Positions 8,763 through 11,233 of a DNA stretch of 11,233 nt are shown here, piece by piece. Origin of the DNA: a virus; the UHGV virus genome UHGV-0151101. The stretch is one strand, 5' to 3'. Each line of letters begins with the position of its first letter. Position 1 is the first letter of the stretch. A program made the translations under genes and the position numbers. The notes beneath the pieces were generated by a model. The model worked only from the letters and a program-made list of their open reading frames with translations. It was not told where the DNA came from and made no database searches.

Positions 8763-8806
8763 GCTCACCCGGTTAGAGGTGAAAGGCCAGAACTGTTAAA
8801 GAGCAA
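8763..8806 (-). promoter_or_regulatory. nutR: boxA plus boxB hairpin
   Basis: On the - strand, boxA TGCTCTTTAACA begins 6 nt after the cro stop. boxB UCACCU-CUAACC-GGGUGA (6-bp stem, hexaloop CUAACC) at + coordinates 8763-8783. Confidence 0.65.
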
Positions 8807-9077: not shown

Positions 9078-9728
9078 ATGAATACACAACTGATGGGTGA
9101 GCGTATTCGCGCTCGCAGAAAAGAACTCAAGATTAGGCAGGCTGCCCTTGGCAAGATGGTTGGCGTGTCTAATGTTGCTATTTCCCAATGGGAGCGATCT
9201 GAAACTGAGCCCAATGGCGAAAACCTATTGGCCTTAGCCAAGGCTTTGCAGTGCTCCCCTGATTACCTGTTGAAAGGAGAGGATAGTCTTTCAAACATTG
9301 CCTATCACAGCAGGCATGATCCAAGAGGTTCGTATCCTCTAATTAGTTGGGTAAGCGCAGGATGTTGGATGGAAGCTGTAGAGCCATATCATAGGCGTGC
9401 AATAGATAACTGGTACGACACAACGGTAGATTGTTCTGAAGACTCTTTTTGGCTCGACGTTAAAGGCGATTCAATGACTGCCCCGGCAGGACTGAGTATT
9501 CCTGAGGGGATGATTATTCTCGTCGACCCAGAAGTCGAACCACGTAATGGAAAGCTGGTAGTCGCCAAACTTGAAGGAGAAAACGAGGCGACATTCAAAA
9601 AGTTAGTTATTGATGCCGGTAGAAAATTCCTGAAACCACTCAATCCACAATACCCAATGATTGAAATCAATGGGAACTGTAAAATCATTGGCGTTGTCGT
9701 TGATGCCAAGCTAGCAAACCTTCCTTAA
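9078..9728 (+). CDS. c2: Prophage repressor, 216 aa, P22 c2 type (cI family, LexA-like autocleavage domain)
   Basis: MNTQLMGERIRARRKELKIRQAALGKMVGVSNVAISQWERSETEPNGENLLALAKALQCSPDYLLKG... and the C-terminal peptidase-like domain (GDSM...K) match P22 c2 as recalled. Confidence 0.95.
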   Translation: MNTQLMGERIRARRKELKIRQAALGKMVGVSNVAISQWERSETEPNGENLLALAKALQCSPDYLLKGEDSLSNIAYHSRHDPRGSYPLISWVSAGCWMEAVEPYHRRAIDNWYDTTVDCSEDSFWLDVKGDSMTAPAGLSIPEGMIILVDPEVEPRNGKLVVAKLEGENEATFKKLVIDAGRKFLKPLNPQYPMIEINGNCKIIGVVVDAKLANLP

Positions 9729-9750
9729 GGGGCTTTCGCCCCTTTTTTTA
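9729..9750 (+). terminator. Intrinsic terminator after the repressor gene
   Basis: GGGGC tttc GCCCC followed by TTTTTTT, starting 1 nt after the c2 stop. Confidence 0.7.
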
Positions 9751-9793
9751 TTTCCCGTTAAAAATCAAAGACAAACTAAATTCACGCCCATAA

Positions 9794-9853
9794 AATTAAG
9801 TTTTCTTCAAAAATGCACTTGACCAATAAATTAAGAAGTCTTAAATTTAAGCC
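9794..9853 (+). promoter_or_regulatory. PL promoter with OL operators
   Basis: TTGACC (9819-9824), 17-nt spacer, TAAATT (9842-9847). Operator-like AATTAAGAAGTCTTAAAT at 9829-9846 overlaps the spacer and -10. A second, weaker half-site pair lies at 9794-9811. Confidence 0.55.
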
Positions 9854-9893
9854 ATCAGCAGGACGCTGGAAGCCAAACGGAACAGATTGGCAG

Positions 9894-9933
9894 GCTCTTT
9901 AACATCGACGGACTCTCAACCTAACCGTTGAGA
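9894..9933 (+). promoter_or_regulatory. nutL: boxA plus boxB hairpin
   Basis: boxA GCTCTTTAACA at 9894-9904. boxB TCTCAAC-CTAACC-GTTGAGA at 9914-9933, with the same CUAACC hexaloop as nutR. Confidence 0.65.
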
Positions 9934-10043
9934 CCAGAACTTGAGTGGTTTTGGGGATGGCGCGAATTGCAGCTGCAAGACAGCGATCGAGAAGATAAGC
10001 ACCTCGACGCGTCATGCGCCAAAGCCACTTAAAGGAGACCATC

Positions 10044-10349
10044 ATGGTAACCATTGTCTGGAAAGAATCCAAAGGTACGGCAAAAAGCCGCTACAAAGCT
10101 CGCAGAGCAGAACTTATTGCCGAGCGACGCAGTAATGAAGCACTGGCGCGAAAAATTGCGCTAAAGCTCTCTGGTTGCGTCAGAGCAGACAAAGCAGCAT
10201 CACTAGGAAGCCTTTGCTGCAAGAAGAAAGAAGAAGTCGTTCGAAAAAATAGAAGTATTTATTACAAAGATTCAAACCCATTAGGAAACAAAATACATGC
10301 AGTCCAAAAAATAAAATTGTACAGTAAACTACCGTACGGTGCTTATTGA
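10044..10349 (+). CDS. N: N-like early antiterminator, 101 aa, phage-21-type arginine-rich motif
   Basis: N-terminal GTAKSRYKARRAELIAERR matches the phage 21 N boxB-binding peptide as I recall it. AAAGGAGA ribosome-binding site 6 nt upstream of the ATG at 10044. Follows PL and nutL. Confidence 0.8.
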   Translation: MVTIVWKESKGTAKSRYKARRAELIAERRSNEALARKIALKLSGCVRADKAASLGSLCCKKKEEVVRKNRSIYYKDSNPLGNKIHAVQKIKLYSKLPYGAY

Positions 10350-10351
10350 GT

Positions 10352-10690
10352 ATGCTTATGGTGAAAAAGACTATTTATGTTAATCCTGACCGCGGACAAA
10401 ACAGAAAAGTATCTGATAGAGGTCTTACATCTCGAGACAGGAGGAGAATAGCGAGATGGGAAAAAAGGATAGCATATGCATTAAAAAACGGTGTAACACC
10501 TGGATTTAATGCTATAGATGACGGTCCTGAATATAAGATTAATGAAGAACCAATGGACAAAGTTGACAAAGCATTAGCAACACCATTTCCTCGCGATGTC
10601 GAAAAAATTGAAGATGAAAAATATGAGGATGTAATGCACAGAGTTGTTAATCACGCTCACCAACGAAATCCAAATAAAAAATGGTCATAG
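10352..10690 (+). CDS. Hypothetical protein, about 112 aa, in an AT-rich segment immediately downstream of N
   Basis: Complete ORF beginning 3 nt after the N stop (start ATG at 10352 or 10358 uncertain). Basic N-terminal half, acidic C-terminal half. Followed by a strong intrinsic terminator. No homolog recognised. Confidence 0.5.
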   Translation: MLMVKKTIYVNPDRGQNRKVSDRGLTSRDRRRIARWEKRIAYALKNGVTPGFNAIDDGPEYKINEEPMDKVDKALATPFPRDVEKIEDEKYEDVMHRVVNHAHQRNPNKKWS

Positions 10691-10712
10691 CCCACTTCGG
10701 TGGGTTTTTTAT
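10691..10712 (+). terminator. Intrinsic terminator (tL1-like) after the N-distal ORF
   Basis: CCCAC ttcg GTGGG followed by TTTTTTAT, immediately after the TAG stop at 10688-10690. Confidence 0.7.
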
Positions 10713-10823
10713 TGTCTGAACAAACCTAATTTACTACCGCAAGCCACGCAGTGAAATGGAGGTGACTTGTGTTGGTCGCCAGAAAATGAAATTAGGCAGC
10801 AAAACACTTATTTGAGGTGATAT

Positions 10824-10910
10824 ATGGAAGAAGAATTTGAAGAGTTCGAAGAGCATCCGCAGGATGTGATGGAACAATACCAGGACTATCCGTATGACTA
10901 CGACTATTGA
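10824..10910 (+). CDS. Candidate 28-aa hyper-acidic, Tyr-rich micro-protein
   Basis: AGGTGA Shine-Dalgarno sequence 4 nt upstream of the ATG. Hand translation MEEEFEEFEEHPQDVMEQYQDYPYDYDY. Shares an exact 18-bp initiation cassette with the next gene. Confidence 0.3.
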   Translation: MEEEFEEFEEHPQDVMEQYQDYPYDYDY

Positions 10911-11049
10911 TAAGAATCAATGGTGTGGACAATACGAACGACGACAATGATTGCCAGAGAACTTGGTAAACAGAACTACAAGGCTGCCTGATGGTGGCCT
11001 TTATTTTTGTCCGTAAATAATTTCATGCTTATTACAATCAAGGTGATAT

Positions 11050-11233
11050 ATGGAAGAACAAGCAAACAAGATTCTCGTAGAACTACTGCAAAAAGCCAGT
11101 AATGGAATAGACGCGGCTGTTTCATTTAGCCAGGCACAGATTCCTGATGTTGTTCATCAGTTGCTGCTATGGAATATGGTTGACAGTCTGATTAAAACAT
11201 TAATGGCCATTCTAACAATCCCACTGGTTTTCT
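11050..11233 (+). CDS. 5' part of a gene running off the window; encoded protein has a hydrophobic segment
   Basis: Same 18-bp cassette AGGTGATATATGGAAGAA. Open to the window edge: MEEQANKILVELLQKASNGIDAAVSFSQAQIPDVVHQLLLWNMVDSLIKTLMAILTIPLVF. Likely membrane-associated. Confidence 0.45.
   Translation, partial: MEEQANKILVELLQKASNGIDAAVSFSQAQIPDVVHQLLLWNMVDSLIKTLMAILTIPLVF

What the first reader, a model, noticed from the sequence alone, without database searches (positions are those of the whole stretch)
10150..10712. AT-rich cargo module fused downstream of N, encoding an unrecognised charged protein
Base composition drops sharply across the 3' part of N and the following ORF: by my count 10201-10260 is about 37% G+C and 10261-10320 about 27%, against roughly 50% elsewhere. 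The about 112-aa ORF is co-transcribed from PL with N and closed by a strong terminator. In lambdoid phages this slot usually holds host-takeover, anti-restriction or superinfection-exclusion genes (ral, sieB, kil). This protein, basic N-terminally and acidic C-terminally, matches none I recognise and may be an undescribed early anti-defence or exclusion factor.
Basis: partly seen in the sequence, partly recalled or inferred. Interest (0 to 1): 0.7.

Follow-up and report, generated by a model that had tools for sequence, protein, structure and literature searches.

The report
Known phage Nun exclusion gene
The "unrecognised" 112-codon gene after N is the well-studied Nun protein of phage HK022, which lets a resident prophage block infection by lambda-type phages by jamming RNA polymerase on their early transcripts; it is a known gene, not a new factor.

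Summary
G+C is 36.7% at 10201-10260 and 26.7% at 10261-10320, against 47.6% for the window. A 112-codon ORF (10352-10690) starts 2 nt after the N stop and ends in a hairpin plus T-run terminator.

The protein is not undescribed. It is 107/109 identical to HK022 Nun (PDB 6ALG chain N, E 8e-71). Its RNA-binding arginine-rich motif is 26/26 identical to the Nun peptide solved with lambda boxB RNA (1HJI). The polymerase-contacting residues H93, H98, H100, R102, K106, K107 and W108 are all present.

The novelty claim is wrong.

The added detail is anatomical:
- The AT-rich block starts inside N at about 10240. There a phage-21-type N 5' part joins a P22/ES18-type N 3' allele of 29% G+C.
- That 3' allele contains the stretch annotated as the nun promoter in the HK022-derived hybrid O276.
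- The original phage-21-type N 3' end lies displaced after the nun terminator (10717-10815).
- The window's own nut sites are 21-type, so its own transcripts should escape Nun.
- This N-nun arrangement occurs in 213 of 5426 complete E. coli genomes, where it is mostly labelled hypothetical.

The parts
9819..9847 (+). PL promoter-like site (TTGACC-17-TAAATT). The transcription start is about 9853-9854 by transfer from the phage 21 annotation.
   Evidence: Promoter scan. The phage 21 record marks the pL start at L003 1205. Window 9700-10266 is 97.2% identical to L003 1052-1617.
9894..9932 (+). nutL of phage-21 type: boxA GCTCTTTA (9894-9901) and boxB hairpin CTCAAC-CTAACC-GTTGAG (9915-9932).
   Evidence: Exact single match of the hairpin. 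It folds as a 7-bp stem. The phage 21 record annotates boxA-L and nutL at the matching positions. No lambda-type boxB occurs anywhere in the window at up to 3 mismatches.
8765..8804 (-). nutR of phage-21 type, between cro and cII: boxA GCTCTTTA (8804-8797) and boxB TCACC-TCTAACC-GGGTGA (8782-8765).
   Evidence: Read from the sequence. The hairpin folds. Phage 21 annotates nutR and boxA-R in the same position.
10044..10349 (+). Antiterminator gene N (101 aa), a chimera. Codons 1 to about 65 (10044-10239) are phage-21 type. The remainder (about 10240-10349) is an AT-enriched P22/ES18 gp24-type C-terminal allele.
   Evidence: PHROG 271 N-like, E 4.6e-31. The arginine-rich motif is 22/22 identical to the phage 21 N peptide in PDB 1NYB. 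There is 97% DNA identity to phage 21 up to about 10240, with the alignment ending at 10266. The C-terminal 44 aa match the C-termini of ES18 gp54, BTP1 N and ST64T gp24 at 66-77% aa identity (alignments A2 and A3).
10297..10325 (+). Prophage promoter for nun (P_Nun), inside the N coding sequence: -35 ATGCAG (10297-10302), 17-nt spacer, -10 TACAGT (10320-10325), with an A-rich tract between them.
   Evidence: The record of phage O276, which carries the HK022 immunity region, annotates the 'nun gene promoter' -35 and -10 at L001 1566-1571 and 1589-1594. The window matches HK022 across the whole -35/-10 interval, with no mismatch from 10265 to 10347. Promoter activity in this phage is inferred, not shown.
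10352..10690 (+). nun, encoding the Nun transcription arrest and exclusion factor. It is 112 codons from ATG 10352 or 110 from ATG 10358; the mature protein is 109 aa in the PDB numbering.
   Evidence: PDB 6ALG chain N, E 8.2e-71, 107/109 identical (differences S11R and D63E). PDB 1HJI chain B, 26/26 identical. PHROG 5632, E 8.5e-71. 97.1% DNA identity to HK022 over 10232-10707.
10689..10714 (+). Intrinsic terminator after nun: a 7-bp G+C-rich stem with a TTCG loop, then TTTTTTATT. It overlaps the nun stop codon.
   Evidence: Terminator scan and fold, centroid -10.3 kcal/mol. HK022 keeps the stem through a compensatory change, CCCAC/GTGGG to CCCGC/GCGGG.
10717..10815 (+). Displaced 3' end of the phage-21-type N gene. 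It encodes ...NLIYYRKPRSEMEVTCVGRQKMKLGSKTLI*, has no start codon, and marks the right-hand junction of the inserted module.
   Evidence: Window 10719-10957 is 92.5% identical to phage 21 L003 1597-1835. L003 1597-1617 is matched twice, by window 10246-10266 and by 10719-10739.

Best explanation
The ORF at 10352/10358-10690 is an ortholog of nun of coliphage HK022. The AT-rich block from about 10240 to 10714 is a self-contained nun expression module recombined into the 3' end of a phage-21-type N gene.

Proposed mechanism:
1. In a lysogen, nun is transcribed at a low constitutive level from P_Nun (-35 at 10297-10302, -10 at 10320-10325). This promoter lies inside the AT-enriched last third of N. 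The transcript stops at the terminator at 10689-10714. After induction, nun is also read from PL together with N.
2. When a phage with lambda-type nut sites superinfects, Nun's N-terminal arginine-rich helix (residues 20-44) binds the boxB hairpin of the nascent nutL and nutR RNA. There it competes with lambda N.
3. The basic C-terminal tail (H93 to S109) then inserts into the transcribing RNA polymerase between the enzyme and the nucleic acids. This blocks translocation, so early lambda transcription arrests just past nut and the incoming phage fails. [quoted passage not shown]
4. The resident phage is spared because both of its own nut sites carry phage-21-type boxB hairpins. These are served by its own 21-type N.

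Shown here: the sequence identity, conservation of the functional residues, the promoter and terminator sequences, the nut types and the module boundaries.

Taken from the literature on HK022 Nun: steps 2-3, and the constitutive activity of the promoter in step 1.

Inferred: that the same holds in this phage, and that the phage is immune to its own Nun.
For: Identity:
- 107/109 identical to the Nun chain of the cryo-EM arrest complex 6ALG.
- 26/26 identical to the Nun peptide of the boxB complex 1HJI.
- PHROG 5632 'Nun-like' matched full length, E 8.5e-71.
- Annotated as Nun in mEp235 and mEpX1, which are 99.6-99.8% identical over 10150-10712.

Functional residues: H93, H98, H100, R102, K106, K107 and W108 are all present. 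These are the positions mutated or discussed in PMC5386594. The two substitutions, S11R and D63E, lie outside both the RNA-binding motif and the C-terminal segment.

Mechanism and specificity come from the papers. Nun binds lambda boxB through its arginine-rich motif, competes with N and arrests RNA polymerase. Its only known role is to exclude lambda and lambda imm434, which share nut sites. The Nus factors stimulate it. The level in lysogens is about 100 nM (PMC5386594; PMC4124055).

Promoter: the annotated nun promoter hexamers of O276/HK022 are conserved base for base.

Terminator.

Self-immunity: no lambda-type boxB in the window. nutL and nutR are 21-type. The N arginine-rich motif is 22/22 identical to the phage 21 N peptide of 1NYB.

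Module boundaries.

Maintenance in nature: the module is present in 221 of 5426 complete E. coli genomes, always on the chromosome, and 213 carry this same N-nun-remnant arrangement.
Against: Nothing here was measured in this phage. Promoter activity, Nun protein level and lambda exclusion are all transferred from HK022.

P_Nun is a poor consensus match (-35 ATGCAG), and the generic promoter scan did not pick it up. The primary paper that mapped it (King et al. 2000) could not be read here. The hexamer positions therefore rest on a GenBank annotation.

The statement that Nun ignores 21-type nut sites comes from the literature and my own knowledge (Robert et al. 1987). It was not tested here.

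S11R and D63E are untested substitutions.
Confidence: 0.93

Rival explanations
1. The gene is a Nun ortholog by descent but does another job in this N-bearing phage. It might modulate the phage's own N-dependent antitermination, or exclude a different set of phages. In that case lambda exclusion would be incidental or absent.
For: In HK022, nun sits where N would be and the phage has no N. Here Nun coexists with a working-type N and would be co-expressed with it from PL. The literature notes that no role other than lambda exclusion is known and that nun mutants grow and lysogenise normally (PMC4124055), which leaves room for unnoticed roles. Overproduced Nun acts without nut.
Against: The RNA-binding motif is identical to the one solved on lambda boxB. 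The phage's own nut hairpins are of a different, 21-type sequence. The module keeps its own promoter and terminator unchanged, which fits expression in the prophage state for exclusion.
Confidence: 0.04
2. One reading: an undescribed early anti-defence, anti-restriction or host-takeover protein.
For: The slot after N often holds such genes, and a ral remnant lies 200 nt downstream. General libraries give no name: Pfam, NCBIfam and PADLOC return nothing, and RefSeq calls it hypothetical in E. coli genomes.
Against: It is 98% identical to a protein with solved structures and decades of genetics. It shows no similarity to Ral or to any defence or anti-defence model.
Confidence: 0.01
3. The low G+C only records foreign origin of the module and has no function of its own. 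On this view the AT-rich N 3' end is not a promoter in this phage, and nun is expressed only from PL.
For: The whole right end of the window stays at 37-44% G+C beyond the module, so early-left regions here are generally AT-rich. The P_Nun hexamers match the consensus poorly.
Against: The lowest G+C, 29%, is confined to the roughly 110 nt that carry the annotated promoter. Compared with the homologous ES18 and UPF_BP1 N 3' ends, the substitutions around the hexamers go toward A/T while largely keeping the protein: CAGCGCATAAAGCTGAACAGC becomes CAAAAAATAAAATTGTACAGT, and QRIKLNS becomes QKIKLYS. The stretch matches HK022 with no mismatch from 10265 to 10347.
Confidence: 0.1

Closest known systems
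Nun transcription termination/arrest factor of coliphage HK022 (PDB 6ALG chain N; 1HJI chain B)
   Same: 107/109 identical protein, with an identical boxB-binding motif and identical C-terminal polymerase-binding tail. The upstream promoter stretch is the same and a terminator follows. DNA identity is 97.1% over 10232-10707. Both sit in the PL operon next to the immunity region.
   Different: HK022 has no N gene. Its nun follows PL-putL, and only 38 codons of an N 3' end remain upstream. Here nun follows a complete, chimeric N with 21-type nut sites. There are two conservative substitutions, S11R and D63E. HK022 has IS903 downstream; the window has a displaced N 3' end and a ral remnant.
N-nun loci of phages mEp235, mEpX1, Kapi1 and PDP110P1, and of Stx1a phages such as PA28
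   Same: The arrangement is the same: 21-type N fused to the AT-rich N 3' allele, then nun, then the displaced N remnant. mEpX1 and mEp235 are 99.6-99.8% identical over 10150-10712, and their Nun is 100% identical. In those records it is annotated 'transcription termination factor Nun' or 'Nun-like'.
   Different: The flanks diverge after about 10816. In PA28-type Stx1 phages the module is 92% identical, a 1-nt deletion shifts the N stop over the nun start, and the terminator hairpin is degraded.
Lambdoid N antiterminators (lambda N, phage 21 N, P22 gp24)
   Same: Nun has an arginine-rich N-terminal helix that binds a boxB hairpin in nascent RNA and a C-terminal part that engages RNA polymerase. 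It also depends on the Nus factors. The literature calls it a lambda N homolog (PMC4124055).
   Different: The outcome is opposite: arrest instead of antitermination. Nun does not match the N PHROG or the Pfam N_peptide model. It acts on a competitor's transcripts, not on the phage's own.
Nun-like ORF43 and ORF42 of Hafnia phage Pocitis76
   Same: They lie directly downstream of an N gene. They carry the C-terminal tail motif VVNHA(H/S)QRN..KKW and match PHROG 5632 at E 2e-16 and 1e-8.
   Different: They are only about 43% identical. There are two tandem copies with different arginine-rich N-termini, and ORF43 resembles the lambda N motif (MDAQARRREKRKAKQEEWKK). Their function is untested.

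Membership tests
HK022 Nun family (transcription arrest / lambda exclusion factor) | Full-length sequence similarity to HK022 Nun | tested here: met
   6ALG chain N, E 8.2e-71, 107/109 identical over the whole chain. PHROG 5632 matched at positions 1-112 of 112, E 8.5e-71.
HK022 Nun family (transcription arrest / lambda exclusion factor) | N-terminal arginine-rich motif that binds lambda boxB RNA | tested here: met
   DRGLTSRDRRRIARWEKRIAYALKNG is 26/26 identical to the Nun peptide of the solved boxB complex 1HJI. RNA binding itself was not assayed.
HK022 Nun family (transcription arrest / lambda exclusion factor) | C-terminal polymerase-binding segment with H93, H98, H100, R102, K106, K107 and penultimate W108 | tested here: met
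   All residues are present at those positions. Their roles are described in PMC5386594.
HK022 Nun family (transcription arrest / lambda exclusion factor) | Own constitutive prophage promoter just upstream of the coding sequence, and a terminator just downstream | tested here: inconclusive
   The sequence of the annotated nun promoter is conserved base for base, and a terminator is present. Promoter activity cannot be measured with these tools, and the mapping paper could not be read.
HK022 Nun family (transcription arrest / lambda exclusion factor) | Location at the start of the PL operon next to the immunity region | tested here: met
   The order is cI (9078-9728), PL, nutL, N, nun. The position is second in the operon, not first as in HK022.
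HK022 Nun family (transcription arrest / lambda exclusion factor) | nut-dependent arrest of RNA polymerase and exclusion of lambda by lysogens | not testable with these tools
   This needs plating of lambda, lambda imm434 and lambda imm21 on lysogens, or in vitro transcription on pL-nutL templates.
Lambdoid N antiterminator, phage 21 type (the upstream gene) | Arginine-rich motif of phage 21 N together with matching 21-type boxA and boxB nut sites in both early operons | tested here: met
   22/22 identical to the 1NYB peptide. nutL is at 9894-9932 and nutR at 8765-8804. PHROG 271, E 4.6e-31. The Pfam N_peptide score is only 18.4 bits, below the 27.9 cut-off.
   No PADLOC, Pfam or NCBIfam hit. 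The real ral homolog is a separate, disrupted ORF at 10894-10950.

The most novel reading that the evidence does not exclude
The N-nun tandem seen here may be the ancestral and normal home of nun, with the textbook HK022 arrangement (nun in place of N) a derived, rare form.

Support:
- 213 of 221 nun-bearing E. coli genomes have the N-nun arrangement.
- HK022 and HK75 still carry 38 codons of an N 3' end upstream of nun.
- That stretch holds the sequence annotated as the nun promoter in the HK022-derived hybrid O276, and it looks like N coding sequence recoded toward A/T.
- A distant Hafnia phage has two tandem Nun-like genes with different arginine-rich heads after its N.

Together these hint at a wider family of 'anti-N' exclusion factors: duplicates of N whose RNA-binding heads are swapped to target the nut sites of different rival phages.
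Probability: 0.3. Interest if true: 0.35.

Novelty: already known. Interest (0 to 1): 0.12.

Why it matters
For the scan, this is a clear-cut negative. A candidate flagged as an undescribed early factor is one of the best-studied phage exclusion proteins, with solved structures.

It is still worth recording for two reasons.

First, Pfam, NCBIfam and PADLOC have no model for Nun. In the 30 E. coli chromosomes listed, out of about 220 that carry the module, RefSeq labels it 'hypothetical protein' or 'regulator'. Automated pipelines, and readers working from memory, will keep rediscovering it.

Second, the boundary analysis explains the composition drop. A low-G+C N 3' allele that houses the annotated nun promoter has been recombined into a 21-type N. 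The same analysis shows that nun usually travels together with N, rather than replacing it as in HK022.

Tried and rejected
- Pfam, NCBIfam and PADLOC scans of the protein returned nothing. This reflects missing models, not novelty.
- An Rfam scan of the whole window gave no family at gathering score.
- A direct blastn of the AT-rich N 3' end (10150-10360) against the displaced remnant (10701-10900) found no significant DNA similarity. The two N ends are related only at the protein level and through third sequences. They are therefore not a simple target duplication, although a short ATTTA(T/C)TAC match sits at both junctions.
- MAFFT aligned HK022 sequence upstream of 10232 with the middle of N, which hints at a longer N remnant with a deletion. 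The match is short and I did not test it against shuffles, so I make no claim.
- The paper that mapped the nun promoters (King et al. 2000, PMC94296) is not held. I used the O276 GenBank annotation instead.
- Literature searches for a description of N and Nun coexisting in mEp235, mEpX1 or Kapi1 found nothing relevant.
- I did not run structure prediction, fold search or the large protein-database searches. A solved structure of a 98% identical protein already settles the identity.

Full report
**Observation**

G+C is 36.7% for 10201-10260 and 26.7% for 10261-10320. It is 37.3% for 10150-10712, against 47.6% for the window. About 1% of equally long windows are as low, and the minimum starts at 10174.

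An ORF of 112 codons runs from ATG 10352 to TAG 10688-10690. It starts 2 nt after the N stop at 10347-10349. A hairpin at 10689-10706 with a TTCG loop, followed by TTTTTTATT, closes it.

The N-terminal 46 residues are basic (pI 11.5) and the middle is acidic (pI 4.15). The last 17 residues are again strongly basic. No + strand terminator-like site lies between the cI terminator and 10689, so reading from PL through N into this ORF is anatomically plausible.

**Identity**

The protein is Nun of coliphage HK022.
- Against the solved structures it matches 6ALG chain N ('Transcription termination factor nun') at E 8.2e-71. It is 107 of 109 residues identical; the differences are S11R and D63E.
- It matches the 26-residue Nun peptide of 1HJI at 26/26.
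- PHROG 5632 'Nun-like transcription termination factor' is matched end to end at E 8.5e-71.
- At the DNA level, 10150-10712 is 99.8% identical to phage mEpX1 and 99.6% to mEp235, where the gene is annotated as Nun. 10232-10707 is 97.1% identical to HK022 itself.
- Pfam, NCBIfam and PADLOC have no model for it. RefSeq labels it 'hypothetical protein' or 'regulator' in the 30 E. coli chromosomes listed. This probably explains why it looked unfamiliar.

**Surroundings**

The upstream gene, 10044-10349, is an N antiterminator (PHROG 271, E 4.6e-31). Its arginine-rich motif is 22/22 identical to the phage 21 N peptide of 1NYB.

nutL lies upstream of N: boxA at 9894-9901 and boxB CTCAAC-CTAACC-GTTGAG at 9915-9932. 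nutR lies on the other strand between cro and cII, at 8765-8804. Both are of phage-21 type. No lambda-type boxB (GCCCTGAARAAGGGC) occurs in the window even at three mismatches.

**Module boundaries and the composition drop**

Window 9700-10266 aligns to phage 21 at 97%, but mismatches pile up after about 10240 and the alignment ends at 10266. Phage 21 similarity then resumes at 10719 (92.5%) and continues from the same point of the phage 21 N gene (alignment).

The segment from about 10240 to about 10716 is therefore an insertion relative to phage 21. The original N 3' end is still present after the terminator, at 10717-10815. It encodes NLIYYRKPRSEMEVTCVGRQKMKLGSKTLI*, against phage 21 NRIYYSKPRSEMGVTCVGRQKIKLGSKPLI*.

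The inserted segment supplies a replacement N C-terminus. That C-terminus is a genuine N allele, since it matches the C-termini of ES18 gp54, BTP1 N, ST64T gp24 and phage L gp24 at 66-77% amino-acid identity (alignments).

G+C by part is 48.5% for the 21-type part of N, 29.1% for the replacement N end, 36.9% for nun and 43.8% for the remnant.

**The promoter inside N**

Phage O276 is a hybrid carrying the HK022 immunity region. Its record annotates a 'nun gene promoter' with -35 ATGCAG and -10 TACAGT. These fall at window 10297-10302 and 10320-10325, and the window matches HK022 with no mismatch from 10265 to 10347.

Compared with the homologous ES18 and UPF_BP1 N 3' ends, this stretch has moved toward A/T while largely keeping the peptide. 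CAGCGCATAAAGCTGAACAGC becomes CAAAAAATAAAATTGTACAGT, and QRIKLNS becomes QKIKLYS. My reading is that the extreme AT-richness of the N 3' end reflects its second job as the prophage promoter for nun.

HK022 and HK75, which lack N, still carry these 38 N codons upstream of nun, unannotated.

The paper that mapped the promoter (King et al. 2000) is cited in PMC5386594 for the Nun level in lysogens, about 100 nM. It could not be read here. From memory, its abstract says the promoter is constitutive in the prophage and that its transcripts should stop after nun.

**Mechanism**

This part is transferred from HK022. Nun binds the boxB hairpin of nascent lambda nut RNA through its arginine-rich motif and competes with lambda N. 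It stalls RNA polymerase translocation through its C-terminal segment, which fits into the elongation complex. H93/R94, N97/H98/H100 and Q101-S109 (including R102, K106, K107 and W108) make the contacts. The Nus factors stimulate arrest when lambda boxA is present (PMC5386594).

Its only known role is exclusion of lambda and lambda imm434, which share nut sites. nun mutants grow and lysogenise normally (PMC4124055).

All these residues are present in the window's protein. The window's own nut sites are 21-type, so I infer that the resident phage is not a target of its own Nun. That Nun does not act on phage 21 nut rests on Robert et al. 1987 as I remember it, not on a test here.

**Distribution**

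The module occurs in 221 of 5426 complete E. coli genomes, always chromosomal. Of these, 213 carry the whole N-nun-remnant arrangement of 10045-10830. In the phage collection, 30 records encode Nun. They include HK022, HK75, O276, mEp235, mEpX1, Kapi1, PDP110P1 and a set of Stx1a phages at 92.7% amino-acid identity.

The window as a whole is a mosaic lambdoid early region. The best overall matches are CUS-3 (67% covered, 94% identity) and Kapi1 (64% covered, 97.9% identity).

**Verdict**

It is wrong on the point that gave it interest, because the gene is known and structurally characterised.

What is added here is anatomical:
- the chimeric N;
- the displaced N remnant;
- the annotated promoter inside recoded N sequence;
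- the finding that N-nun, not the HK022 arrangement, is the common context.

These points are modest and untested by experiment.

Noticed in passing
window 10717-10815: A displaced, start-less 3' end of a phage-21-type N gene lies just after the nun terminator. The functional N upstream therefore ends in a different, P22/ES18-type C-terminus. A short ATTTA(T/C)TAC match sits at both junctions (10258-10266 and 10725-10733).
   Followed up: yes
L002 (HK022) 1501-1620; L007 (HK75) about 1075-1194: HK022 and HK75 are known for lacking N, yet they keep 38 codons of an N 3' end directly upstream of nun. The stretch is unannotated and matches the window's N tail at 97% aa identity. The annotated nun promoter lies inside this remnant.
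   Followed up: partly
window 10894-10950: A ral pseudogene. The first 13 codons match phage 21 and lambda Ral (MTTTIDKNQWCGQ). A 103-bp internal deletion between GG(A/G)CAAT repeats then shifts the frame and stops after 18 aa. The Ral C-terminal coding part (…IRTTTMIARELGKQNYKAA*) follows out of frame.
   Followed up: partly
window 10824-10910: A 28-codon, very acidic ORF (MEEEFEEFEEHPQDVMEQYQDYPYDYDY) matches PHROG 16060 (unknown function, E 7e-19). It is conserved in phage 21 between N and ral but not annotated there, and it overlaps the ral start.
   Followed up: partly
L006 (Hafnia phage Pocitis76) 2001-2267 and 2375-2680: Two tandem Nun-like ORFs lie directly after that phage's N gene. 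Both end in the Nun tail motif (VVNHAHQRNRHKKW and VVNHASQRNPKLKW). Their arginine-rich heads differ, and one closely resembles the lambda N motif (MDAQARRREKRKAKQEEWKK). This suggests Nun-type factors with swapped RNA specificities.
   Followed up: partly
L005 (Stx1 phage PA28) 888-1564: In PA28-type Stx1a phages the nun ORF is intact at 112 codons, but RefSeq annotates only the last 45. A 1-nt deletion extends N over the nun start. The terminator hairpin after nun is degraded and no longer folds.
   Followed up: partly
window 10319-10337: An imperfect palindrome, GTACAGTAAACTACCGTAC, overlaps the nun promoter -10 hexamer and the likely transcript start. The scan scored it as terminator-like on the minus strand. 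It is identical in HK022.
   Followed up: no
window 11051-11233: A partial ORF running off the window end (MEEQANKILVELLQKASNG…) matches PHROG 3054 (unknown function, E 8e-30). It follows a second terminator-like hairpin at 10980-11001.
   Followed up: no
Nun residues 84-112 (window about 10601-10687): The C-terminal tail of Nun weakly matches the last 28 positions of PHROG 12139, a 289-position family of unknown function (E 2.5e-4). Residues 23-68 weakly match PHROG 22612 (E 3.3e-4). These may be other phage proteins sharing Nun's polymerase-binding tail or its RNA-binding head.
   Followed up: no
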